Below, in pieces: positions 19,893-29,587 of a stretch of 64,000 bases of DNA. A model generated the notes under the pieces. It was not told the origin of the DNA. It ran no database searches and was given only the letters and a program-made list of their open reading frames with translations. The stretch's first letter is position 1; the number at the start of each line of letters is the position of its first letter. Origin of the DNA: Escherichia phage LPEK22. The stretch lies in sequence record OK283619.1; one strand, given 5' to 3'. The position numbers and the translations under genes were made by a program.

Positions 19893-21086
19893 TTAGCTGG
19901 GGACAAACTCATTCACAGGGACATGTTCAGGTATTGATAATTCAGGACAAGCAGCTTTCATCGCTTCCAGATATGGCTTGCTACCCACGATCCAAAACAA
20001 TGAGTTCTCATTAAGCAATTCTGGTTTGTGTTCCTGTATCCATGTCATCACCTTCCCTTCATAACGAGGATGCAACTCAATATCTCCCCACTGGTAATCC
20101 ATGAGGTCGTTGTAACGAACCCAATTAGTGGTATGAAGATCCCAATGGTGTACCTCAAAGCGAGGAAGCACGATATCCGGCTCGTTCTTTGGCCTGATAC
20201 CACTTAGGAGGCCAGCCAGCGAAACGCTCTTAGAGGCATGCTGAAGATCCTTCTTACCATACACATAATCTGGGTTGTCGTGATAGCGACGAGTGAAATC
20301 AGTTATGTGAGGGAGGTTTGCTTGCTTACCGATAATGCGCAAACGACTTTCAATGAAATCTAATCGGTTAGGTCCAATCCCGATCAGATAGACATTCTTC
20401 AGATTTGGTTTCGGATGCATCGCTAAACCTGTCAGGATACTGGTGCATGAATTACAAGAACCAGCAGGAATGATCAGATCAGTGATATGGTCTGGGATAT
20501 TGGCAACCTGCTCGCCACCCAGCATATGGAATCCAGCAATGCGTTCTGGTGAATGAACGGTATGATCCAATGTAATGCCATATTCCAGATAATACGCCTT
20601 TGGATTTAATTGTTCAATGAGTTTCTTACAGCGCGGCTGAATGGTGCTATTGTAACCAGATCCAACAAAGTTGAACTCACTACCAAACCATGCTGACATT
20701 GAAACCATATCATGATTCATGCATGTGGTTGGTTTAGTGGCACCCAGCACAGTGGTTGTCTTGCCGCCGAAATGCCGTGAGACTGCCGTCGCCATAGGGG
20801 ACTGCGGACTACCAACTACAGTACCATGGATAAGATCTGGGGATCCTCCAGCTTTCAGATGCTCCATCATGAGCCAGATGGCCTGGCGGAGTTTGCTGCC
20901 ATTGATCCCCTGCTTGCCATTCATATAGCATGACAAAGGCGCGAAGTAATCTTCACGTTTGAACCAAACCTGCTGATTGGTTTCTGGATTGGCAATAAGT
21001 TCGCACGGGGTGTGTTTGTAGAGATAGTCTTCCCAGTGAACCAGATTACGGTCGAGGGAAAGGGTATCGAAGATGGTTTTGTTCAT
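19893..21086 (-). CDS. PLP-dependent enzyme (fold-type II, ACC-deaminase-like)
   Basis: 397 aa; N-terminal KREDYFAPLSCYMNGKQGINGSKLRQ resembles the ACC deaminase/D-cysteine desulfhydrase lysine-containing motif; AGGAG RBS. Confidence 0.55.
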   Translation of the reverse strand: MNKTIFDTLSLDRNLVHWEDYLYKHTPCELIANPETNQQVWFKREDYFAPLSCYMNGKQGINGSKLRQAIWLMMEHLKAGGSPDLIHGTVVGSPQSPMATAVSRHFGGKTTTVLGATKPTTCMNHDMVSMSAWFGSEFNFVGSGYNSTIQPRCKKLIEQLNPKAYYLEYGITLDHTVHSPERIAGFHMLGGEQVANIPDHITDLIIPAGSCNSCTSILTGLAMHPKPNLKNVYLIGIGPNRLDFIESRLRIIGKQANLPHITDFTRRYHDNPDYVYGKKDLQHASKSVSLAGLLSGIRPKNEPDIVLPRFEVHHWDLHTTNWVRYNDLMDYQWGDIELHPRYEGKVMTWIQEHKPELLNENSLFWIVGSKPYLEAMKAACPELSIPEHVPVNEFVPS

Positions 21087-21155
21087 TCTATTTCTCCTGT
21101 AGGCATTGGCTTATCATAGCGTATCTACAGGAGTATAGAAAAGGAGAATCTCGGA

Positions 21156-21857
21156 TTACTTCTTGAACAGACGAAGGAACTTCATCATGTTATCCATGAA
21201 AGTCGGCTTCTCGACCTTTTGTTTTACCGGAGCGCCCTGATCATTCAGAACACGACTGGCCGGAGGAGTAGGCGGTGTCGGGATTGAACTGTCATGTTTA
21301 ACAACCGGAGCACCACTGGCCAGAGGAGTTGGCTTCAAAGATTTAATTGCCTGATTCAAATCGGAATTATCCACGACACCCACTTCTTCACCGACCGTAA
21401 CGCATGGTTTGATCAGAACGGATTTCTTAGACTGCTCATACTGATGAGCGATGTCCAGATATTTCTTGCGCTCTGTGTAGAAATCAACATTCTTTACTTT
21501 ACGGCGGCGAGCAGTAGAACTCTCTTCACCATAGAAATCATAACCATTTTTGAATAACCAATTCACGGCTTGCTCAAATGTGTTGAACACCATATACAGA
21601 CCGCGTCGACCATTTACCATGTCGTCTTCGCTGGAATAACCAATGAATACCGCTTGCCCTTTCTTGTTGATATCAAAAGGAGTACACACACCAGTTTCTT
21701 CAAGTGATCGCGGAGCAAGATGCCCGTCCCGATAGATATATGCCGGATACAAGAACTCATTAAGAGTACGTTTGTTCCCTTTGTATGTGTACAGGCGAGC
21801 AAATGGAGGCAGGTCACAAACGACATCGTTGTAATCCCAAATCGTAACATTACGCAT
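21156..21857 (-). CDS. hypothetical protein
   Basis: 233-aa ORF; GAGGAAA RBS; Pro/Thr-rich linker PTPPTPPAS. Confidence 0.55.
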   Translation of the reverse strand: MRNVTIWDYNDVVCDLPPFARLYTYKGNKRTLNEFLYPAYIYRDGHLAPRSLEETGVCTPFDINKKGQAVFIGYSSEDDMVNGRRGLYMVFNTFEQAVNWLFKNGYDFYGEESSTARRRKVKNVDFYTERKKYLDIAHQYEQSKKSVLIKPCVTVGEEVGVVDNSDLNQAIKSLKPTPLASGAPVVKHDSSIPTPPTPPASRVLNDQGAPVKQKVEKPTFMDNMMKFLRLFKK

Positions 21858-21928
21858 GTTGTTTCCTCAAATCAATGAAGGGGTTTATAAACGGTTAAAT
21901 TTTAAACCCCTTATTCTCATTGAACAAA

Positions 21929-22447
21929 TCAAATACTAGTCATATAGAGTGGGACAACCTGCTCAGCGATCAACACGACCTCGGTAATGGTAAAGTCACC
22001 ACCATAAGAGTACAGTTTCATTTGCGCTCCGTTGGTCGCCAGGTTCCCATCCTTGTCAACGCTGAAGAATGTAATGAAAGACAAAGTGTCCGGCGGCGGT
22101 ACGCTAGCATCACGACTTCTTGATAACTGGTTCCCCACAGAACCCACAAAATCTAATATCATGGTTCTATTAGAAGTAGACCCAGACCATGATCCGACAA
22201 TATTAACCTTCACCGGAAGAATAGAATCATAGGGAAACGCATGAAATTTGTGATCTGATAATTTAAAAAACGGGGCTAAACCAGTAGGAGAAGAAGGGTT
22301 CGGAGTCTTCCCATCCAACACAGTTAATAAATCTATTCCAGTTGCCCCAGAAGTTAGCAGTTGTGACAACCCAGAAAATCTGACTTCTGTTTTAATGCGG
22401 TGGGTCTGAAGCATATTCCCCAAATAGGGAGATGTCAAAATAGCCAT
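21929..22447 (-). CDS. hypothetical protein
   Basis: 172-aa ORF; AAGGAGG RBS. Confidence 0.55.
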   Translation of the reverse strand: MAILTSPYLGNMLQTHRIKTEVRFSGLSQLLTSGATGIDLLTVLDGKTPNPSSPTGLAPFFKLSDHKFHAFPYDSILPVKVNIVGSWSGSTSNRTMILDFVGSVGNQLSRSRDASVPPPDTLSFITFFSVDKDGNLATNGAQMKLYSYGGDFTITEVVLIAEQVVPLYMTSI

Positions 22448-22456
22448 ACCCCCTCC

Positions 22457-22690
22457 TTAAGAAACGATAACTGTCGCATCAGAATTAATTGCCTTAACCC
22501 AACCCACCGTCGGCGGGGTTAAAACGACCATATTTCCTTGATATACGATGTGCGCGTTGTTACCCGTTGGAATACTAGGGCTATCGCACAAATACACAGA
22601 ACCGTGAGTCACTTGAAGAGTTTTCAAAGATGTTCCGTCTGAGACTTGTGTCCATGTACTTGCGTTTGGTGTGATCTTAGCAGTTGCCAT
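22457..22690 (-). CDS. hypothetical protein
   Basis: 77-aa ORF; AAGGAGG RBS. Confidence 0.5.
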   Translation of the reverse strand: MATAKITPNASTWTQVSDGTSLKTLQVTHGSVYLCDSPSIPTGNNAHIVYQGNMVVLTPPTVGWVKAINSDATVIVS

Positions 22691-22735
22691 AATAGACCTC
22701 CTTTACAAGTCAGATCTATTTATTATAGACAAAAA

Positions 22736-22760
22736 GAAGCCCGATCTTCCTGATCGGGCT
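22736..22760 (-). terminator. intrinsic terminator closing the tRNA-cluster transcript
   Basis: AGCCCGATC-loop-GATCGGGCT hairpin followed by UUCUUUUUGU on the minus-strand RNA. Confidence 0.5.
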
Positions 22761-22986
22761 ATGTTAAACCATCGTGGGGATGGAAAGACTACTCACAGCA
22801 ATTTCTAGTATTAGGCGTTTGGGAGAGTGCGTCGGGAATCGAACCCGAAACCGTCAGGACAATGAAAAGCTATTGCATTTCACCTTGCATATCCTCCGGC
22901 TTTCTTAACTTCCTTAACCCCAGATTGTTATGAAGTCAGCATGCACACCTTCTTCATCTTCAGGAAGTCACACTCATTATTCTGAT

Positions 22987-23071
22987 TGCTTCAACTGGAT
23001 TCGAACCAGTGACCTCAGGCACCTTGTTCTCTCGAAACTTTCCTGCGCTCTACCACTCGAGCTATGAAGCA
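22987..23071 (-). tRNA. tRNA-like element, atypical (85 nt)
   Basis: Perfect 7-bp acceptor stem (TGCTTCA/TGAAGCA), canonical D-arm (GCTC-GAGTGGTA-GAGC) and T-arm (ACTGG-TTCGAAT-CCAGT), but no standard 5-bp/7-nt anticodon arm. Confidence 0.35.
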
Positions 23072-23074
23072 ATT

Positions 23075-23163
23075 TGGCGGAAGGTGAAGGATTCGAACCT
23101 TCGGGGGCTAAAAGCCCCACTCGATTAGCAGTCGAGTCCCTTAAACCTCTCGGGCAACCTTCC
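23075..23163 (-). tRNA. tRNA-Ser (anticodon GCU), type II with long variable arm
   Basis: Hand fold of reverse complement: acceptor GGAAGGT/ACCTTCC, anticodon stem CTCGA/TCGAG, loop CUGCUAA, variable hairpin GGGGC-TTTTA-GCCCC, T-arm GAAGG-TTCGAAT-CCTTC, encoded CCA. Confidence 0.6.
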
Positions 23164-23989
23164 GTATACTGCGCTTCGGTCAAGAATTTCCAAGCCATGA
23201 CCTAAATCTGGGTTCTTGACCTGACCGAAACGACTTATTGGTGCTCGTTAGAGGATTTGAACCCCAGCACTCTGGTGATCAACCCAGAGAGTCGCGCCTC
23301 ATCCATTTGTTAGCCTAAACGAGTCTTGCAAAACCCGCACCGACCGTCTACAAACAGACTGCTTGACCGAGCGTAATATGGACGGGCTTCACACCCGATT
23401 GTGCATTTGATCTGCCGTAGCCCAACTCCCCGCGCTTATCAGCGCCGATTGGTTAACTGACACCAGTGCCTTCTGGTTCGATCTCCTGGAACTTTACAGG
23501 CTTCGCGCCCGACCATTTCTGGAAGTTGGGGCATCGTTTCCGATGTGGAGTCACCCCATTTTATACACAGCTGGCTGCAACGCTTACTGTGTTTGGTCTA
23601 CCACCACGTGCTGGGCCACGCTTGAGGACATCGGCCATCCTTCCTCAGCTAATCCACGCGGTGGTAGATTTTGTATCAGAGTGTCCGGTGTAGCTTTCCG
23701 TGAGGTGCGCACTACTGTAGCCTCTACACTCTGAATTTGGTGGGCGTTACTTTCGTCGGGTTCAGATTCCGTTCGGCTATTAGACGTCGCTCGAGAGAAC
23801 TTGTCGTTCGCGTACTTCGTGCTTACTTGCTTTCGTTTCACACCCATTGTTTGTCGTCGGGCGGGGGATTCAAACCCCAATCTTTAGTTTGTGTTTCTTC
23901 AAAGCTATCATATGTTCACTTTGAATACTAGACTCCCCTGGACATCAAAACAGAATCTCTATTCCATCCTGCAAGACCCGACATAATCC

Positions 23990-24065
23990 TGGCGACGATG
24001 ACAGGACTTGAACCTGCGACATACGATTTAACAGACCGCCGTTCTACCGACTGAACTACATCGTC
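23990..24065 (-). tRNA. tRNA-Asn (anticodon GUU)
   Basis: Hand fold: acceptor GACGATG/CATCGTC, D-arm GTTC-AGTCGGTA-GAAC, anticodon loop CUGUUAA, T-arm GCAGG-TTCAAGT-CCTGT, encoded CCA; close to E. coli tRNA-Asn. Confidence 0.6.
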
Positions 24066-24480
24066 TCTATTCTTACTTTCGTAAACACTCTTTATTCTGC
24101 ATGAAGATCCAGGGCAGGATCATAACGATCGTAAGTTTTTGGATGAGACCCGTTCTTGATGCTCACCATCCGACCTTCCCAACTAGCGCGAATTCTGTTG
24201 GAAATCACCACCCAAATATTCTTCATAATATAGAACCCTTCAACTATGTTTATTCGCTTCGATCGCCCTTAATTGGGCGTCCGCGTCAGCTTTGGTGCCA
24301 TGTGTCCCAAGAACATTAGTCTTGGTGTGGTCAAGGACAACCCACTTATCGCCTCGCTTTTCAACAAACTCAACAATCTCTTTGTTGTCGGTAGCGAGAC
24401 CATCCCACTCAGTAAGAAAATCACCGAACGTTTTCATCATACTCACCAATTGTTTATTGAACAACTGGTTTATTTAGTGG

Positions 24481-24556
24481 TGACCCTGGCTGGACTTGAA
24501 CCAGCGACCAATCGATTATGAGTCGACTGCTCTAACCACTGAGCTACGGGGCCAAA
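24481..24556 (-). tRNA. tRNA-Met (anticodon CAU; Met or Ile2)
   Basis: Hand fold: D-arm GCTC-AGTGGTTA-GAGC, anticodon stem GTCGA/TCGAT with loop CUCAUAA, T-arm GCTGG-TTCAAGT-CCAGC, encoded CCA. Confidence 0.6.
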
Positions 24557-26144
24557 ATTTGGCGGGGTCTGAGGATTTTCACCTCTCCTTGCTGGTTTGG
24601 CCGCCAGCCTGTTCTCTCTGGGGACTCGCTGTCCGGACAGCTGTCCCTTAAACTATCGCCCCATAATTTATTGTGTGACCAACCAAGGTCTCTCAACCCT
24701 TTATCCCGTTTGTGCATGATCAGTTCATGCATGCCTGTTTGTGCGCCTCACGGCAACGCGCTTCTGTGGGTCTTTGGCTTGCACCGTAGCCTCACCACAG
24801 GCGTTTATTTTTCCAGGGCTTTCCACTTGCAAGTCTTGACCATACAGGGATACGGGCTTGCAAGATCGGGTTGGACACAACTTTGATGGCTCTGGTACTA
24901 AAGATCCCGCGTCACCCATAGACATGGTTTATGAAATCCAGAGCCATCAAAGTTGCAACCAAATGTCACAACTCGCATTCAATGTCTTCGTCACACCGAA
25001 TACTTGTCCTCTATCGCTCGGACCAAACGAGGCTGGCCGACAGAAACATAACACCACTCATCACTAGAGCGAGGATGTGGTTGATGGCCACGATGTAATG
25101 TCTCTATCGAAGAGTGATCACACTTGTCAGATGATCACTGTTTTGCGAACTCGAGAATACTGCGCCTGTCTCGGGTTTCCCCTTAGTTCGGCCTCTCATT
25201 GTTCGTCTAGTCAGGGAGCTACCCTTGATGACCAGCTTATATTGAGATCTTCGCCAGCGCCCACCAGTGTCTAGAATGTGTAGGCGTCGAGGTCTGCAAG
25301 GCATTGCCCTATTTCATACAACGCTCTCTCAAGTACGCAAATCGAAGTTCTCTGGGCTTAACAGGTTCGACCCAACATGTTGTATATCGCCTAACTTACT
25401 CATGGGACGGCCACTTCTGTGTACAGACCTTGAGGGTTAAAAGATATACCCAGAGAACTTCGATTTGCGTTGCCCTTCACTTGCCAGAGATCAGGGCAAT
25501 TGGTAAGACTTCGCTCACATCTTAGAGGACACTGCACGGGACTCGAACCCGCCACGAACATTTGGCGCCAAATGCTTCCACCTGTCAATGTCCTCTAAGA
25601 TGTGGAGCCGTTTTAGGGAGTCGAACCCAAATGCTTGGCCAGCGCTGACCTTACATCCCATCTGACTTAGGCAACCCACCTCTGCCTACTCAGGAGCTTA
25701 TCCCCTTTGGACAGTCAGATATAACGGCTTTGGGATTGGAGGAAGGACTCGAACCTTCTCATGTACGCTCCTGATTTCTCAGAAGTAGTCTGCTCCCATC
25801 GACCTATTAAGTACACGCTCCGCTCATTGTCGGCGGGAGATTATTAATCACACCCTCCCGCCTATTTTAGTGCGCCGAATTTTGTTATGAGGAATCGGAA
25901 GACCTCACTGGTGTATGGCTATTAAGCTACTGCCAGGAACGTGTTATCATTAGCGATTATTTTTGTGGTCAGTTTCTAAAAACCCGCAAAGTCACGCACA
26001 ACGAAAACGAAAACCTGTTTGAGTCCTAAACCTACCTGTCTTGGTCTCACATCGCTATGAGTGGCCAGGACTCAAACAGCTTGCCGTTCAGTGAGTTAAC
26101 TATACTTTGTAACCCGTTATTGATAAAACCTTTTATTTTTGTTG

Positions 26145-26244
26145 ACGAGGGTGTGGAATCGAACCACACTTCTGAGCGCTGCCCCGTGTCACCAATGCAC
26201 CACCTCACCATCGATTTGCCGGAACTTACGCATCCGGCCTCGTC
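26145..26244 (-). ncRNA. tRNA-like element, about 100 nt
   Basis: 6-bp acceptor-type stem (ACGAGG/CCTCGT) plus T-arm GTGTGG-TTCGATT-CCACAC, but about 25 nt too long for a tRNA; inner hairpin CCGGA-N9-TCCGG. Confidence 0.3.
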
Positions 26245-26872
26245 CTGTCGGTGTTCTTCTGAATCCGGGAAGATCAGCAGGAACTATGAATCAAGTTAAT
26301 TCAACCAACAGGAATCCTCTTGTTGCCCTTTGACGCAACATTATGAACCCTCTATGAAGATTCATAATGTTGTCGGCGTGATGGAGATTAGCGCCCCCGA
26401 CCTCCCCTTATATGTTGGTGTCGACTTGCCAACGGGGTGCTCTCGTTTTTCTGAGCTAATCACGCTACAACAGGGAGTTTCGTTCTCCGACGGTCAAGTG
26501 CGTCCACTGACACCAGCGAGGTGGCTATTACGCCTCTATTCACACAAGCCCCTGAGACTAGGGGTTAACTGGTTTTGGGCTGCAAACCCGACTCCCACTG
26601 TGTTATTTCCCTCATGTTTAATACTTTACCGCAGCCCAGCTAATTTGAAAAGTCCTCTCCCCTTTGAGCTACACTGCCCACAGCAGTGCGGACGAACCTT
26701 CACTCAAAACCGGATGCGCCGAAGTGGGCAACTGTTTACCGGACTGATCAGGTAGACCCAGGAGAGAGCAGGTAATCCCGATCAGGAGGATGAGGAGTAA
26801 CATCATGTAAAACATAGTGTTCCCTCCCTTCCATGCAACTAACTTTACTACAATTATTTATTGAATAAAGCG

Positions 26873-27442
26873 TTATTTTAACACTTCTAACTTCACAACA
26901 CGACGCAGAAGGTAAACATATTCGCCAGCAGCTTCATGCGTCATATAATGGGTAGAAGGTGTGGAATGATTGTTCTGGGTTTCTTTTAATCCAACACGTT
27001 CTACCCAACCATTAATAGAGTTCCCATAGAAACCGATAATCGCGCCAAAATAAATGCGCTGGCTTTCTGGCTCTAAAACATAGTTGACAGTGAAGCAAAT
27101 ATCAGAACGAATAGACTCCAGTTTCATACCAACACGACCTTCGGAGAATTCGTTACGAACATATAAATGACGGAAACGATCGCGCCGCGCTTGTGATGAT
27201 TCTTCCAATTCTTGTCGAAGTGAAGAAGTTACGTCAATATTAAATGAAAATGTTGGATTTTGTAAATCAGAACGGGCCAACTCTAACGCAGATTCAACAA
27301 CGCGACGGAAATTGATACTTTTACCTGTCAGGCGTTTCACTTCATCTGTGATTGTTCCAAAAGGGATTTTCGTGGCGCGTTCCCCTTCGTATTTTGCCAA
27401 TAAAGGAATAATGTGTTTCATGATTGCTGTGTTAATGTGCAT
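26873..27442 (-). CDS. hypothetical protein
   Basis: 189-aa minus-strand ORF isolated between the tRNA cluster and the late operon. Confidence 0.5.
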   Translation of the reverse strand: MHINTAIMKHIIPLLAKYEGERATKIPFGTITDEVKRLTGKSINFRRVVESALELARSDLQNPTFSFNIDVTSSLRQELEESSQARRDRFRHLYVRNEFSEGRVGMKLESIRSDICFTVNYVLEPESQRIYFGAIIGFYGNSINGWVERVGLKETQNNHSTPSTHYMTHEAAGEYVYLLRRVVKLEVLK

Positions 27443-27758
27443 TCCGGAGCCTCACCGAATTGATTAAATGTCTCCATTATTATATTGGAGATACGTTTAT
27501 TGAATATAAACGCAGGAATGGCCAATAAAATAATGACAGTGATTATTAATAGGTAAAAACTACTTTTCTACAACATCAAGAAACTGTATCTTAACGCGGT
27601 GCCCTTCGAGTTGTGAGTGTTAACGAACAACGAGAAGCAGCCTCCATGGCTGTGGAATGGGACTGCCTGTCAAGGCGGTGTTACGAGCGAGGGCGTCAGC
27701 CCCCTCGCGAGTATATTCGAATAAATTAAACGCGCGCGAGCGTTTTGATTCCCGTTGG

Positions 27759-27766
27759 CTAAATAT
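27759..27766 (+). promoter_or_regulatory. late promoter motif CTAAATAT
   Basis: CTAAATAT about 40 nt upstream of the first late gene; same motif recurs before other late genes. Confidence 0.45.
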
Positions 27767-27805
27767 CTTCAACACCATATTCAAACTCAGGTGATGGAGA
27801 TTATC

Positions 27806-29587
27806 ATGGCCACGCAAACAGTTCCTTCACTCGACGTCAGAGCATTTGAATACATTATTAAACAGCGAATGAAAGCTGATCCCACCTTTAAAGATTATGA
27901 CTTTGAAGGTTCTGGTCTTAGTGCGATTATTCGTTTGTTGGCATCTGACGCGAACGCCATAGCCTTTATGCAAAACATGCTTAATGGTGAAGGCCATTTG
28001 AAGACAGCAAATCAACGTTCAAACGTCGGTTTATCTGCTGCATTTCTTTCCTACACGCCTGACAACTATCGGGCAGCATACATGTATGTCAACATCAAAG
28101 TTACGCCTTATGACGCCAGCACAGCCCCCAATGAGATCATCATGGATCGGCGCGTAATGTTCGTTGGGGCAAAAGACGGCAGTTCCTACAACTTTACTGT
28201 TGAGAAACCAGTGTCGGCAACGTTGACTGCAGACGGTTATTACATGTTCAACAATGTAAAGTTGGTACAGGGGAATTGGTTGTACAAGACATATGATGTT
28301 GAAGGAAGCGCGATTTCAACATATACGATTCCTTCTGGGAATGTCGATATCAATCATATGGTCGTGCAAGTACAAGAATCAGAGTCTTCCGACGTTTCGA
28401 CGACATATCAACGTTACAACAGTCCATTTGATCTGAGCCAATATGCCTACCTGTATTTCGTAGAATTGGGTATTGATGGTCTGTATGTGTTTGAATTCGG
28501 AGATGGTTATCTTTCGCGTCGAGTAGAAGATGGGAACGTCATATTCCTTCAATACTTAGAAACTTCTGGTGCTGATGGGAATGATATTACAAGCCTGTCA
28601 TCAGCGTCATCCATAGGCGGGTTTAACCAGGTCGACGTAGAATTGGTTTCCGAACGTAGCGCAGGTGGAGACGATCCGGAATCTATTGAGGACACTAAAC
28701 GGTTGGCTCCTTTAGCTTATCAGGCTGATGGTGCGGCGGTTACAGAAACAGATTATGGTGTATTGACTGAAAGGTTATTCTCCAACGTCTCCCGAGCTAA
28801 ATCATATGGTGGTGACACGCTGTCTCCTCCTGATTCTGGCTATGTTTACATCGCTGTTATACCTTCTGTTGGTGAGACACTTTCGGACGCTGAGAAGGCC
28901 GATATCGTTGCTGCTCTGGACAAGTATAATGTGGGATCTATTACCCCCAAAGTGGTAGACTCCGAGATCACATATATCCAAGTCTCAACGACTATATTTT
29001 GGGATCCTACTTCTACAGTCTACGTTGAAGAACAGATGAAAGTTGTTGTTGGAAACAGTATCGTTAAATGGGGTGAAAATAATCTCGGCGGATTTGACCA
29101 ATTGTTTGACAAAGAAATATTGCAGGAAGCAATTACAAAAATGGAACGTTCTATCAACTCGAATATTACTTCAGTTGGTTATAAACGCCATTTTAAACCT
29201 GATTATGGAGTCTTAGACAGTTTCACATTCAGTTATGGACGAAGTATCAAACCTGGTTCTGTGAAAATAACGGGGTTCAAACCGCTTCCTGCCGAGGTGG
29301 ATTTCACTTACTACATGCGCGACAATAATGGCGATTTGAACATGTATAAAGTGAATAACAATGACACGACAAAAGAGTTTTTAGTTCAAAAAACAGGGGT
29401 TGTGGATTATGCAAATGGGGTTGTAGACCTTCAGCAGATCACGGTCTCTAACTATAACCCTGAAGGGGTGACCATAGTCGTGTTACCGGATGGACTGAAC
29501 CAGAACATACAGGCTACACAAAACCAAGTATTCAAGATTGGTGATGTGGTTGTTACGCCAGAGGTGCGCTATGTCCAAAGATCTTAA
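27806..29587 (+). CDS. baseplate wedge protein (gp6/Baseplate-J-like), putative
   Basis: 594 aa from ATG 27806 (GGAG RBS; MATQTVPSLD...); first gene of the late block; size and position fit a baseplate wedge subunit; no motif verified. Confidence 0.45.
   Translation: MATQTVPSLDVRAFEYIIKQRMKADPTFKDYDFEGSGLSAIIRLLASDANAIAFMQNMLNGEGHLKTANQRSNVGLSAAFLSYTPDNYRAAYMYVNIKVTPYDASTAPNEIIMDRRVMFVGAKDGSSYNFTVEKPVSATLTADGYYMFNNVKLVQGNWLYKTYDVEGSAISTYTIPSGNVDINHMVVQVQESESSDVSTTYQRYNSPFDLSQYAYLYFVELGIDGLYVFEFGDGYLSRRVEDGNVIFLQYLETSGADGNDITSLSSASSIGGFNQVDVELVSERSAGGDDPESIEDTKRLAPLAYQADGAAVTETDYGVLTERLFSNVSRAKSYGGDTLSPPDSGYVYIAVIPSVGETLSDAEKADIVAALDKYNVGSITPKVVDSEITYIQVSTTIFWDPTSTVYVEEQMKVVVGNSIVKWGENNLGGFDQLFDKEILQEAITKMERSINSNITSVGYKRHFKPDYGVLDSFTFSYGRSIKPGSVKITGFKPLPAEVDFTYYMRDNNGDLNMYKVNNNDTTKEFLVQKTGVVDYANGVVDLQQITVSNYNPEGVTIVVLPDGLNQNIQATQNQVFKIGDVVVTPEVRYVQRS

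What the first reader, a model, noticed from the sequence alone, without database searches (positions are those of the whole stretch)
24882..25602. Long perfect inverted repeats inside the tRNA-like block
Three stems far longer than tRNA helices occur: 14 bp at 24882-24895 / 24938-24951 (42-nt loop), 21 bp at 25336-25356 / 25449-25469 (92-nt loop), and 14 bp at 25518-25531 / 25589-25602 (57-nt loop). The last loop contains a T-arm-like segment and the 16-nt palindrome CATTTGGCGCCAAATG. Such stems suggest processing substrates or an uncharacterised structured RNA; tRNA genes alone do not explain them.
Basis: seen in the sequence. Interest (0 to 1): 0.55.

Follow-up and report, generated by a model that had tools for sequence, protein, structure and literature searches.

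The report
Conserved long RNA hairpins, phage RNA island
The three long inverted repeats are real, evolutionarily conserved RNA hairpins in a 2-kb gene-less "RNA island" next to the tRNA genes of a Vi01-like Salmonella phage. They most likely mark the boundaries of, and carry, swappable small structured RNAs, one of which looks like the coding half of a tmRNA.

Summary
**Observation:** confirmed, and the stems are longer than reported. The perfect cores are 18, 22 and 16 bp; with G-U pairs or mismatches the stems reach 25, 22 and 19 bp. Shuffled sequence never gives 14 bp or more.

**Conservation:** all three stems are kept across Ackermannviridae genera by compensatory changes. 97-99% of cells are paired, against 18-56% in slid controls. 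G-U pairs outnumber A-C pairs 130 to 2, so the hairpins are RNA of the minus strand, co-oriented with the tRNAs. Rfam and ARAGORN recognise none of them.

[quoted passage not shown] This region is a mosaic of structured RNA modules:
- a fourth long stem;
- tRNA-like units;
- a tmRNA-like tag-plus-pseudoknot module (tag ANDNTFLAVA**), shared with unrelated phage families;
- a 205-nt block present in every relative examined.

**Key details:** homology breakpoints cluster at the stem edges. The third stem keeps its base while its tip is swapped (41-132 nt). It also resembles a hairpin "cassette" family that flanks the tmRNA-like module in siphophage-type contigs.

**Best reading (about 0.5):** these are punctuation and processing stems, of a length suited to RNase III, in a polycistronic non-coding RNA/tRNA precursor, and they also act as scaffolds for variable tips. 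Cleavage and discrete RNA species are not shown.

The parts
24869..24964 (-). Hairpin I2. The stem arms are 24871-24895 / 24938-24962 (25 bp including G-U pairs and one mismatch; 18-bp perfect core). The 42-nt tip carries the conserved motif UAUGGGUGAC.
   Evidence: Found; core measured. It is present in all 18 relatives aligned, including Dickeya phage, where the tip is shortened. Of 22 pairs, 99.0% of cells are paired, 7 pairs show changes on both sides, and slid controls give 31-45%. There are 35 G-U cells against 2 A-C cells.
25335..25470 (-). Hairpin I1. It has a 22-bp perfect basal stem (25335-25356 / 25449-25470) and a 92-nt branched tip with 4 small helices.
   Evidence: Found. Alignment A2 gives 36 pairs in 5 helices with 99.3% of cells paired. 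With Agtrevirus added (A6; three sequence variants of the stem), 8 of the 20 basal pairs show changes on both sides, 97.9% of cells are paired, and slid controls give 18-47%. There are 95 G-U cells and 0 A-C cells.
25516..25604 (-). Hairpin I5. It has a 19-bp basal stem (25516-25534 / 25586-25604). Its tip is a closed tRNA-like mini-domain: a D-loop-like ACAGGUGGAAG, the palindromic hairpin GCAUUUGGCGCCAAAUGU, and a T-arm GCGGG-UUCGAGU-CCCGU.
   Evidence: Found. The basal stem is kept in 8 sequences representing 5 kinds of tip, 41 to 132 nt long. Of 18 pairs, 97.2% of cells are paired, 7 pairs show changes on both sides, and slid controls give 38-56%. The tip and upper stem are homologous to a cassette in siphophage-type contig L126. 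The only Rfam matches are weak ones to tRNA-Sec and mascRNA (16-18 bits).
26005..26089 (-). Its 3' arm is the conserved 5' end (CAAACAGGUUUUCGUU) of the tmRNA-like module.
   Evidence: Found (its pair I4). Alignment A5 gives 27 conserved pairs, 2 with changes on both sides, and many G-U pairs. In siphophage-type contigs the same module 5' end is preceded either by the 3' arm of a cassette stem or by a TTGACA-17-TAGATT/TATAGT promoter.
25835..26020 (-). tmRNA-like module. It contains a resume-like AUAAUC followed by a 10-codon tag ORF, GCU AAU GAU AAC ACG UUC CUG GCA GUA GCU UAA UAG (25954-25919, ANDNTFLAVA**). A helix-5-like hairpin holds the stop codon in its loop, and two H-type pseudoknots follow.
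   Evidence: ARAGORN finds it at a lowered threshold. Rfam tmRNA families match below threshold, at 20-30 bits, here and in five unrelated phages. Of 24 pairs, 97.4% of cells are paired and 15 pairs show changes on both sides. Across the loci there are 54 distinct modules carrying 13 different tags.
25607..25732 (-). tRNA-like unit (c): GCCGUU...GGGUUCGACUCCCUAAAACGGC-U-CCA. It folds as a four-way junction with a T-arm and an encoded CCA that overlaps the first base pairs of I5.
   Evidence: It is nearly invariant across the 7 aligned relatives that carry it (from Klebsiella, Serratia, E. coli and Salmonella phages), and the fold is. ARAGORN does not call it a tRNA at default settings. It has no G3:U70 pair.
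24665..24868 (-). A 205-nt structured block immediately 3' of I2, conserved in every relative examined.
   Evidence: A 329-nt match that includes this block (window 24887-24559) is 91% identical to Dickeya phage Ds25CZ. The alignment shows compensatory changes: CUUGCAAG/CUUGCAAG versus CUUACAAG/CUUGUAAG, and CUGUGG/CCACAG versus CUGGGAU/AUCCAG. There is no Rfam match.
24478..24553 (-). tRNA-Met (CAT), the first canonical tRNA downstream of the RNA island.
   Evidence: Found by ARAGORN and by Rfam at 68.4 bits.
26099..26126 (-). A sigma-70-like promoter candidate (TTATCA-16-TATAGT) just upstream of I4.
   Evidence: This is a consensus scan only, matching 9 of 12 positions; it is not evidence of function.

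Best explanation
The three inverted repeats, plus a fourth at 26005-26089, are long RNA hairpins transcribed from the minus strand. They belong to a roughly 2.1-kb non-coding RNA island that lies upstream of, and is probably co-transcribed with, the phage tRNA cluster.

The island is a string of independently exchangeable structured RNA modules: tRNA-like units, a tmRNA-like tag/pseudoknot module, a conserved 205-nt RNA and, in Taipeivirus phages, an STnc100 small RNA.

The 19-25-bp stems act as punctuation. They sit at module borders, hold variable tip 'cargo', and are the likely substrates of a double-strand-specific endonuclease. Host RNase III is the obvious candidate. Cutting would release the individual RNAs and define their ends.

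Shown: the hairpins exist, are conserved by covariation, are strand-specific RNA, and lie at homology breakpoints. Also shown: one stem's 3' arm coincides with an RNA 5' end that a promoter sets elsewhere.

Inferred: co-transcription, cleavage, and the enzyme.
For: 1. Structure is under selection.
- I2: 99.0% of cells paired, 7 pairs changed on both sides.
- I1: 97.9% paired, 8 such pairs across three sequence variants.
- I5: 97.2% paired, 7 such pairs across five kinds of tip.
- Slid controls give 18-56%.

2. The structures are RNA of the minus strand. There are 130 G-U cells against 2 A-C cells. The flanking ORFs and all tRNAs are on the minus strand.

3. Each stem is about two helical turns of near-perfect duplex.

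4. Eight of 22 homology-breakpoint clusters between the window and 13 relatives fall within 10 nt of a stem-arm edge (P = 0.016). The tip of I5 is replaced while its base is kept.

5. The 3' arm of I4 is the conserved 5' end of the tmRNA-like module. In other phages that same end follows either a cassette-stem 3' arm or a sigma-70 promoter.

6. In Agtrevirus and in several siphophage-type contigs, an I5-type or cassette stem begins within a few bases of the module's last pseudoknot. Long stems therefore bracket the module on both sides.

7. No ORF longer than 73 aa lies in the island on either strand. Only one weak terminator-like site is found on the minus strand.

8. The CBA120 authors noted the same region as gene-less (PMC3184105).
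Against: - No transcript, RNA-end or RNase III data exist for any Ackermannviridae phage in the searchable literature.
- The tips of I1 and I2 are themselves conserved and structured. A mere processing signal would not need that, so the hairpins may be functional RNAs in their own right.
- RNase III sequence determinants were not evaluated.
- A weak terminator-like site at 25054-25072 and a promoter-like site at 26099-26126 suggest there may be more than one transcription unit.
- The breakpoint enrichment is modest and was counted by hand on blastn blocks.
Confidence: 0.5

Rival explanations
1. The hairpins are themselves the functional small RNAs. In this reading they are Y-RNA-like or tRNA-mimic decoys. 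The long stem is a protein-binding or stabilising scaffold. The variable tip, a closed tRNA-elbow mimic in I5, is the effector; for example, it could titrate a host tRNA-recognising enzyme or a tRNA-targeting defence nuclease. The swapping of tips would then reflect an arms race.
For: - The I5 tip has a canonical 5-bp T-stem with a UUCGAGU loop, a GG-containing D-loop-like segment and a closed hairpin.
- Other variants carry other T-arms, for example CCGGUUCGAAUCCGG in IME250.
- The tips are hypervariable on a conserved stem, both in Ackermannviridae and in 26 siphophage-type cassettes.
- Bacterial YrlA Y RNAs share the design of a long stem plus a tRNA-like domain (PMC4201824).
- The tips of I1 and I2 are conserved.
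Against: - Rfam gave no Y-RNA match up to E = 10.
- The YrlA motif GNCGAAN0-1G is absent from I5, I2 and I4. I1 has only AUCGAAG, and that stretch covaries to AGUAGAG in Agtrevirus.
- The neighbouring ORFs give no Pfam match of any kind, so no Ro60/TROVE gene is seen next to the island.
- Most tips carry no T-arm.
- This rival does not exclude processing; both readings could be true.
Confidence: 0.3
2. The repeats act at the DNA level. They would be single-strand DNA hairpins or recombination and homing sites, such as attC-like sites, MITE terminal repeats or homing-endonuclease targets. In this reading they drive module shuffling, and any RNA structure is incidental.
For: - The region is strongly mosaic, with modules present or absent.
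- HNH endonuclease genes are inserted at module borders in relatives: in SeF3a at window 26006-26015 and in KpS110 just before tRNA-Met.
- Homology breakpoints sit at stem edges.
Against: - The G-U versus A-C asymmetry, 130 to 2, is not expected for double-stranded DNA repeats. It would be compatible only with a hairpin formed on one particular DNA strand.
- No presence/absence polymorphism is seen that removes exactly one hairpin.
- The stems are embedded among T-arms, pseudoknots and tRNAs, all on the transcribed strand.
- No integrase or transposase gene is nearby.
Confidence: 0.08
3. The stems are decayed tRNA genes or other non-functional relics of a once larger tRNA cluster.
For: - T-arm-like GGTTCGAnTCC motifs are scattered through the island.
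- The CBA120 paper mentions 'a degenerate tRNA' in the cluster.
- Relatives carry different tRNA sets.
Against: - Pseudogenes would not keep 97-99% pairing through compensatory changes across genera.
- The 18-22-bp perfect stems are not tRNA helices.
- Parts of the island are better conserved between Kuttervirus and Limestonevirus (91%) than most of the rest of the island.
Confidence: 0.04
4. The stems are intrinsic terminators or attenuators that regulate read-through into the tRNA genes.
For: They are stable hairpins (-45 to -60 kcal/mol) upstream of tRNA-Met and on the same strand.
Against: - None is followed by a U-run, and the terminator scan lists none of them.
- Loops of 42-92 nt and stems of 19-25 bp are not typical of terminators.
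Confidence: 0.03

Closest known systems
RNase III processing stems (rRNA operon flanking stems, phage T7 early-mRNA sites R1-R5, cleavage of phage T4 species I RNA). The comparison rests on my own knowledge of these systems.
   Same: Both are duplexes of about two helical turns formed by sequences that flank or separate functional RNAs in a polycistronic transcript. In both, pairing is conserved rather than sequence. The stems here lie at module borders.
   Different: No cleavage has been shown here. The tips are themselves conserved or are swappable cargo. Sequence determinants and antideterminants for RNase III were not evaluated.
Phage T4 stable RNAs C and D (species 1 and 2), encoded inside the T4 tRNA cluster. 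This rests on my own knowledge.
   Same: Both are small non-coding RNAs of unknown function, encoded beside and co-oriented with phage tRNA genes, in a myovirus that shares many core genes with T4 (PMC3121705).
   Different: The island here is far larger (about 2.1 kb, at least 8 modules) and mosaic. No sequence comparison with the T4 RNAs was made.
Bacterial Y RNAs (YrlA)
   Same: Both combine a long stem, formed by the 5' and 3' parts of the RNA, with a tip that mimics tRNA through a T-arm and a D-loop-like segment (I5; PMC4201824).
   Different: The Ro60-binding motif is absent. No rsr/TROVE gene is adjacent. Rfam gave no Y-RNA match. In I5 the T-arm adjoins the 3' arm, which is the standard tRNA order, so the long stem takes the place of the acceptor stem.
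tmRNA (SsrA), including two-piece (permuted) forms and the TLD-only RNA of mycobacteriophage DS6A
   Same: The neighbouring module has a resume-codon context, a 10-codon ANDxxxLxxA tag, a stop codon in a hairpin loop, and pseudoknots.
   Different: No tRNA-like domain with a G3:U70 acceptor stem was found attached to it. All Rfam and ARAGORN scores are below threshold. It is the converse of DS6A, which has a TLD only (PMC4131195). This module is a neighbour of the three stems, not one of them.
STnc100 / PasD prophage small RNAs (Rfam RF02076)
   Same: In Taipeivirus phages an STnc100 match above the Rfam gathering score (48.7-54 bits; cut-off 47) occupies the slot just 5' of hairpin I2. The island therefore hosts small RNAs also known from prophages (bioRxiv 10.64898/2026.05.13.724894).
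   Different: The window itself has no STnc100 match. Only about 20 nt of the element's end remain.
GOLLD and ROOL large RNAs, which are encoded near tRNAs in phages. This rests on my own knowledge; both families are in Rfam.
   Same: Both are large, ornate non-coding regions adjacent to phage tRNA genes.
   Different: Rfam gives no match. The island is modular, with modules present or absent independently, which argues against one single folded RNA.

Membership tests
tRNA | A cloverleaf with a 7-bp acceptor stem, D, anticodon and T arms, scoring above the ARAGORN and Rfam RF00005 thresholds. | tested here: not met
   ARAGORN at default settings and Rfam at the gathering score call only 23075-23163, 23990-24065 and 24478-24553; Rfam in E-value mode adds 22986-23071. 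On the three stems the best match is tRNA-Sec at 18.2 bits against a gathering score of 47.
Any Rfam 15 family | A score at or above the curated gathering threshold. | tested here: not met
   The only matches on 24865-25592 are to microRNA-precursor (simple hairpin) models at 16-28 bits (gathering scores 55-88), and to tRNA-Sec and mascRNA at 16-18 bits.
RNase III substrate | About 20 bp or more of largely uninterrupted double-stranded RNA. | tested here: met
   The stems are 25, 22 and 19 bp, with perfect cores of 18, 22 and 16 bp. Pairing is maintained by covariation.
RNase III substrate | Staggered cleavage within the stem in vivo or in vitro, and dependence on the rnc gene. | not testable with these tools
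   No RNA-end data are available, and no transcriptome paper on these phages was found.
Bacterial Y RNA (YrlA) | The GNCGAAN0-1G Ro60-binding motif in the 5' strand of the long stem. | tested here: not met
   The motif is absent from I5, I2 and I4. I1 has AUCGAAG, lacking the first G, and that stretch changes to AGUAGAG with compensation in Agtrevirus.
Bacterial Y RNA (YrlA) | Being encoded within about 4 kb of a Ro60/TROVE gene on the same strand. | tested here: not met
   Pfam and PHROG scans of nine neighbouring ORFs, spanning 19893-29587, find no TROVE domain.
Bacterial Y RNA (YrlA) | A tRNA-like domain with a T-arm at the tip of the stem. | tested here: met
   Met for I5 only: T-stem GCGGG/CCCGU with loop UUCGAGU. 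Some variants have a different T-arm or none.
Intrinsic terminator | A G+C-rich hairpin with a short loop, followed by a U-run. | tested here: not met
   The scan lists none of the three stems. The loops are 42-92 nt, and no T-run follows.
tmRNA (applies to the neighbouring module, not to the stems) | A tag reading frame with a resume codon and an in-frame stop, followed by pseudoknots. | tested here: met
   A 10-codon tag is kept in 54 distinct modules with 13 different peptides. Helix-5-like and pseudoknot pairs are 97.4% paired, and 15 pairs show changes on both sides.
tmRNA (applies to the neighbouring module, not to the stems) | A tRNA-like domain: an acceptor stem with G3:U70 and a CCA end, plus a T-arm, joined to the coding part. 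| tested here: not met
   ARAGORN at default settings and all Rfam tmRNA families are below threshold. About half of the 35 non-Ackermannviridae loci examined have no T-loop-like motif within 400 nt upstream or 900 nt downstream. Unit (c) has a CCA but no G3:U70. Only wV8 has an adjacent tRNA-like with G3:U70, and it is a separate unit.
MITE or insertion-sequence terminal inverted repeats | DNA-level repeats with no strand preference, target-site duplication, and precise presence/absence. | tested here: not met
   There are 130 G-U cells against 2 A-C cells. No relative lacks exactly one hairpin with the flanks joined.
Retron non-coding RNA (a1/a2 repeats) | An adjacent reverse-transcriptase gene. 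| tested here: not met
   No ORF longer than 73 aa lies in the island, and the neighbouring ORFs show no reverse-transcriptase domain.

The most novel reading that the evidence does not exclude
The 'gene-less 2 kb' of Ackermannviridae, and shorter counterparts in Felixounavirus, Schitoviridae, Drexlerviridae and phage 7-11 relatives, would be a previously undescribed kind of phage locus. It would be an array of exchangeable structured-RNA cassettes. In this array, conserved long stems (I1, I2, I4, I5 and the CACAACAGGUAAGAGCAUUG...CAGUGCUCUUUCCGUUGUG family) serve both as processing punctuation and as scaffolds displaying hypervariable tips. The array would be built around a tmRNA-derived tag/pseudoknot RNA that lacks its own tRNA-like domain. 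If so, the phage would be manipulating ribosome rescue or tRNA-directed host functions with RNA alone.
Probability: 0.35. Interest if true: 0.85.

Novelty: new variant of a known kind. Interest (0 to 1): 0.7.

Why it matters
The CBA120 genome paper (2011) noted about 2 kb with no genes next to the tRNAs and left it unexplained. Kuttervirus, Taipeivirus and Limestonevirus phages are widely studied for biocontrol and therapy.

This work shows that the region is dense with selected RNA structure. It gives a concrete, testable model: long stems as punctuation or cassette holders, probably cut by RNase III.

The same analysis turned up a tmRNA-like tag/pseudoknot RNA shared by unrelated enterobacterial phage families. 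The two tmRNA surveys consulted do not list it; they report phage ssrA only in mycobacteriophages and Bacillus phage G. If that RNA is translated, these phages would feed their own degradation tag into ribosome rescue. If it is not, it is a mimic of the coding half of tmRNA.

Either outcome can be tested directly with RNA-seq, rnc/smpB/ssrA host mutants and mass spectrometry for the tag.

Tried and rejected
**tRNAs with introns or odd tRNAs.** ARAGORN with introns allowed and lowered thresholds gave only implausible calls, such as tRNA-Val with a 31-nt intron spanning I5. I rejected these.

**tmRNA calls over the stems.** ARAGORN -m -ps80 also proposed tags ATSLVSVDALDRRRTKLPVVA and ACGEATVQAKDPQKRVAVRRTNRHA. 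I treated these as chance. The second lies in the 205-nt block, whose conservation is explained by base pairing.

**Protein coding.** Only ORFs of 73 aa or less lie in the island. The 'hypothetical proteins' annotated there in SeF3a are PHROG singletons.

**Y RNA.** The motif and the Ro60 neighbour are absent.

**Neighbouring proteins as RNA-processing factors.** The hits are phrog_3788 and phrog_8415, both of unknown function, and a baseplate wedge protein. They give no lead.

**A tRNA-like domain for the tmRNA-like module.** I examined units (a), (b), (c), the tips of I4 and I5, and 35 flanking regions in other phages. None has a G3:U70 acceptor stem joined to the module. This remains unresolved.

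**Literature.** Searches for STnc100, for Ackermannviridae non-coding RNA, for phage tmRNA or tmRNA-like RNAs, for Kuttervirus transcriptomes and for YrlA found no description of these hairpins or of the module.

**IMG/VR scan for more Ackermannviridae.** It returned mostly the same isolate genomes, so it added little diversity.

**STnc100-like repeats in BUCT610.** They look STnc100-like by eye, but Rfam does not match them at E = 1 or better. I make no claim about them.
Full report
**What the window is.** The 1.8 kb around the finding is 100% identical to Salmonella phages STP55 and Liang dang 541. It is 93-99.9% identical to many other Kuttervirus (Vi01-like, Ackermannviridae) genomes. All annotated neighbours run on the minus strand. 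These are a 189-aa ORF (26873-27442), a 48-aa ORF (26669-26815), and the tRNAs Met (24478-24553), Asn and Ser, plus a fourth tRNA at 22986-23071 that only Rfam detects. Between 26668 and 24554 there is no ORF longer than 73 aa on either strand. [quoted passage not shown]

**The observation.** All three repeats are present and are longer than reported.
- Stem 1: 24871-24895 / 24938-24962, 25 nt at 88%.
- Stem 2: 25335-25356 / 25449-25470, 22 nt at 100%.
- Stem 3: 25516-25534 / 25586-25604, 19 nt at 95%; the exception is a T-G wobble.

The perfect cores are 18, 22 and 16 bp. Sixty dinucleotide-preserving shuffles of the island never produced a perfect inverted repeat of 14 bp or more; the mean longest was 8.9 and the maximum 13. 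The whole 64-kb window holds only eight perfect inverted repeats of 12 bp or more, and five of them are in this 2.1 kb. I call it I4, with arms 26006-27 / 26067-88.

**Are the stems selected, and on which strand?** I fetched the homologous intergenic region from 13 other Ackermannviridae: Taipeivirus, Agtrevirus, Limestonevirus, unclassified Aglimvirinae and divergent Kuttervirus. I added further copies from IMG/VR.

| Stem | Window coordinates | Sequences | Pairs | Cells paired | Pairs changed on both sides | Slid controls |
|---|---|---|---|---|---|---|
| I2 | 24869-24964 | 19 (all relatives aligned, incl. Dickeya phage) | 22 | 99.0% | 7 | 31-45% |
| I1 | 25335-25470 | 17 (three sequence variants) | 20 basal | 97.9% | 8 | 18-47% |
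| I5 | 25516-25604 | 8 (five kinds of tip) | 18 | 97.2% | 7 | 38-56% |

- The branched tip of I1 forms four further small helices that are always paired.
- Agtrevirus changes AAAUCGAAGU/ACUUCGAUUU in I1 to AAAGUAGAGU/ACUCUACUUU.
- Across the I2 and I1 alignments there are 130 G-U cells against 2 A-C cells. The structures therefore form in an RNA, or at least a single strand, with the sense of the window's minus strand, the same strand as the tRNAs.
- Neither ARAGORN nor any of the 4227 Rfam families reaches threshold on these intervals. The best matches are generic microRNA-precursor hairpin models, and tRNA-Sec and mascRNA at 16-18 bits on the I5 tip.

**Anatomy of the island (minus strand, 5' to 3').**
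1. A conserved 470-nt stretch after the 48-aa ORF.
2. A tRNA-like unit with a perfect 7-bp acceptor stem, GACGAGG/CCUCGUC, and a T-arm (26243-26148).
3. A promoter-like site (26126-26099).
4. Hairpin I4 (26089-26005).
5. A tmRNA-like module (26020-25835).
6. A 96-nt tRNA-like indel module ending CUCCAAUCCCA (25826-25731).
7. A nearly invariant 126-nt tRNA-like unit ending AACGGC-U-CCA (25732-25607).
8. Hairpin I5.
9. Hairpin I1.
10. A variable 370-nt stretch.
11. Hairpin I2.
12. A 205-nt block (24868-24665), conserved with covariation; a 329-nt match that includes it is 91% identical to Dickeya phage Ds25CZ.
13. A further movable unit (24664-24554).
14. tRNA-Met.

Pairwise blastn shows the island is a mosaic in which modules are present, absent or replaced independently. 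In Taipeivirus phages, an Rfam STnc100 small RNA (48.7-54 bits; gathering score 47) is inserted just 5' of I2, between window positions 25002 and 24977. STnc100 is otherwise a prophage-encoded small RNA (bioRxiv 10.64898/2026.05.13.724894). HNH endonuclease genes interrupt the island at module borders in some relatives.

**What the stems do: evidence.** Three observations point to a punctuation or cassette role.

First, eight of 22 clusters of homology breakpoints lie within 10 nt of a stem-arm edge. About 3.5 would be expected by chance (binomial P = 0.016). For example, the XDRKpn-1 and KpS110 homology blocks begin exactly at the base of I1 (25470).

Second, the base of I5 is conserved while its tip is exchanged. 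It is a bare 41-nt hairpin in RPN242, P01 and PH4, the 88-nt T-arm-bearing form here, and 89-, 120- and 132-nt forms elsewhere.

Third, the 3' arm of I4 is the conserved 5' end (CAAACAGGUUUUCGUU) of the tmRNA-like module. In unrelated phages that carry this module, the same 5' end is preceded in one of two ways. Either a sigma-70 promoter sits there (TTGACA-17-TAGATT in BUCT610, TTGACA-17-TATAGT in wV8). Or the 3' arm of another long stem sits there (...CAGUGCUCUUUCC|AGUUUUCG).

That other stem belongs to a family of at least 26 distinct hairpins in siphophage-type IMG/VR contigs. They have the form CACAACAGGUAAGAGCAUUG [tip of 40-170 nt, sometimes with a T-arm] CAGUGCUCUUUCCGUUGUG, and they flank the module on either side. 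The tip and upper stem of one member, L126, are homologous to the window's I5; they share AUUGACAGGUGGA...GGGUUCGAGUCCC. In Agtrevirus, I5 starts within a few bases of the module's last pseudoknot.

Long stems therefore bracket the module in several phage families. A stem about two helical turns long is the classical substrate of RNase III; this last point rests on established knowledge, not on a test here. No terminator-like site separates the modules except a weak one at 25072-25054.

I therefore favour processing or punctuation stems that double as scaffolds for variable tips, with a confidence of about 0.5. Co-transcription, cleavage and the enzyme are all inferred.

**Rivals.**
- *Functional small RNAs in their own right (0.3).* A Y-RNA-like or tRNA-mimic decoy reading fits the I5 tip and the hypervariability. 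It is not exclusive of processing. Membership of the YrlA family fails, because the motif and the Ro60 neighbour are absent.
- *DNA-level recombination or homing sites (0.08).* These would explain the mosaicism, but not the G-U bias.
- *Decayed tRNA genes (0.04) and terminators (0.03).* These are contradicted by the covariation and by the absence of U-runs.

**The neighbour that raises the stakes.** A distant blastn search showed that window 25840-26008 matches unannotated DNA in Felixounavirus, Schitoviridae, Drexlerviridae and phage 7-11. ARAGORN at a lowered threshold reads there a tmRNA-type tag, ANDNTFLAVA**.

Across Ackermannviridae, those phages and IMG/VR contigs I found 54 distinct copies with 13 different tags. 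Among them are ANDNTFLAVA, ANDDVVLMAA, ANDEQFLAVA, ANDSEVLMAA, ANEEMYLAVA and ANDDLMLMAA. Every copy has 10 codons plus a stop, with synonymous changes in codons 1, 2, 7 and 10. For comparison, the E. coli tag is ANDENYALAA (my own knowledge).

The stop codon sits in the loop of a helix-5-like hairpin, and two H-type pseudoknots follow. Of 24 pairs, 97.4% of cells are paired and 15 pairs show changes on both sides, against 32-45% in slid controls. Rfam tmRNA families match every copy tested, but only at 15-30 bits and only over the resume, tag and pseudoknot part.

I could not find a tRNA-like domain with a G3:U70 acceptor stem joined to the module. About half of the 35 non-Ackermannviridae loci examined have no T-loop-like motif nearby. 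The two tmRNA surveys I read list phage ssrA only in mycobacteriophages and Bacillus phage G, with DS6A as a TLD-only form (PMC4131195, PMC11915505). This module is not part of the finding's coordinates, but it is the RNA that the long stems bracket.

**Verdict.** The stems are new instances and a new variant of a known kind of element: conserved processing or scaffold hairpins in a phage non-coding RNA/tRNA operon. They sit in a locus that appears not to have been described. Interest is 0.7.

Noticed in passing
window 25835-26020 (-); tag ORF 25954-25919: A tmRNA-like module: a resume context, a 10-codon tag (ANDNTFLAVA**), a stop codon in a hairpin loop, and two covarying pseudoknots. No attached tRNA-like domain was found. 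The module is shared with Felixounavirus, Schitoviridae, Drexlerviridae, phage 7-11 and many 45-65-kb IMG/VR contigs, giving 54 distinct copies with 13 different tags. It also occurs in Rosenbergiella, Pseudocitrobacter and Erwinia assemblies.
   Followed up: yes
window 25607-25732 (-): A 126-nt tRNA-like unit: GCCGUU...GGGUUCGACUCCCUAAAACGGC-U-CCA. It is nearly invariant across the Klebsiella, Serratia, E. coli and Salmonella phages aligned, but absent from Agtrevirus and Dickeya phages. Its encoded CCA overlaps the first base pairs of hairpin I5, and it has no G3:U70 pair.
   Followed up: partly
window 24665-24868 (-): A 205-nt block directly after hairpin I2. It is conserved in all relatives examined; a 329-nt match that includes it is 91% identical to Dickeya phage Ds25CZ. 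Compensatory changes are visible in at least three helices. It has no Rfam match, and its function is unknown.
   Followed up: partly
window 26148-26243 (-) and 25731-25826 (-): Two further non-canonical tRNA-like units. The first has a perfect 7-bp acceptor stem GACGAGG/CCUCGUC, a T-arm and no CCA. The second is a 96-nt indel module with a GAAA-capped 'anticodon' stem and a T-arm, ending CUCCAAUCCCA. Both are present in some relatives and absent from others.
   Followed up: partly
window 22986-23071 (-): A fourth tRNA that ARAGORN misses. Rfam tRNA scores it at 48.7 bits, with 22 nt where the model has the 9-nt anticodon loop and its closing pair. It may be the 'degenerate tRNA of undetermined specificity' mentioned for CBA120.
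   Followed up: no
L001:2867-3081, L004:2750-2964, L007:2755-2968 (the slot between window 25002 and 24977): Taipeivirus phages carry a copy of the prophage small RNA STnc100 just 5' of hairpin I2. It scores above the Rfam gathering threshold (RF02076, 48.7-54 bits). The window retains only about 20 nt of its end.
   Followed up: partly
L014, L043-L126 (siphophage-type IMG/VR contigs and Klebsiella phage BUCT610): A family of at least 26 long-stem cassettes, CACAACAGGTAAGAGCATTG[tip of 40-170 nt]CAGTGCTCTTTCCGTTGTG, with hypervariable tips, some bearing T-arms. They flank the tmRNA-like module. The L126 cassette is homologous to the window's I5 tip.
   Followed up: partly
L018:1365-1448 (Escherichia phage wV8): An unannotated tRNA-like unit about 60 nt downstream of the tmRNA-like module. 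Its acceptor stem is CGGGGCG/CGCCUCG with a G3:U70 wobble, and it has discriminator A and CCA, which are the alanine identity elements. Rfam tRNA scores it at 31.7 bits. It could be a tRNA-like domain supplied in cis or in trans.
   Followed up: no
L013:1175-1690 (SeF3a), L012:3215-3628 (KpS110); window equivalents about 26006-26015 and just 5' of tRNA-Met: Free-standing HNH endonuclease genes are inserted at module borders of the RNA island in some relatives. One sits exactly at the 3' arm of I4, which is also the 5' end of the tmRNA-like module.
   Followed up: no
window 24554-24664 (-): A unit beginning GGGGCGAUAGUUUAAGGGACAGCUGUCCGGACAGC and ending ACCCCGCCA lies before tRNA-Met here and in Dickeya phage. 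In several other relatives (for example fGh-Ecl02, L024 and L025) it lies after the first tRNA. It is a movable module with a stem whose loop is too short to hold an anticodon.
   Followed up: no
window 25054-25072 (-): The only terminator-like site on the minus strand inside the island. It is a 6-bp stem followed by UGUUAUGUUU, in a segment that varies between relatives. It could split the island into two transcription units.
   Followed up: no
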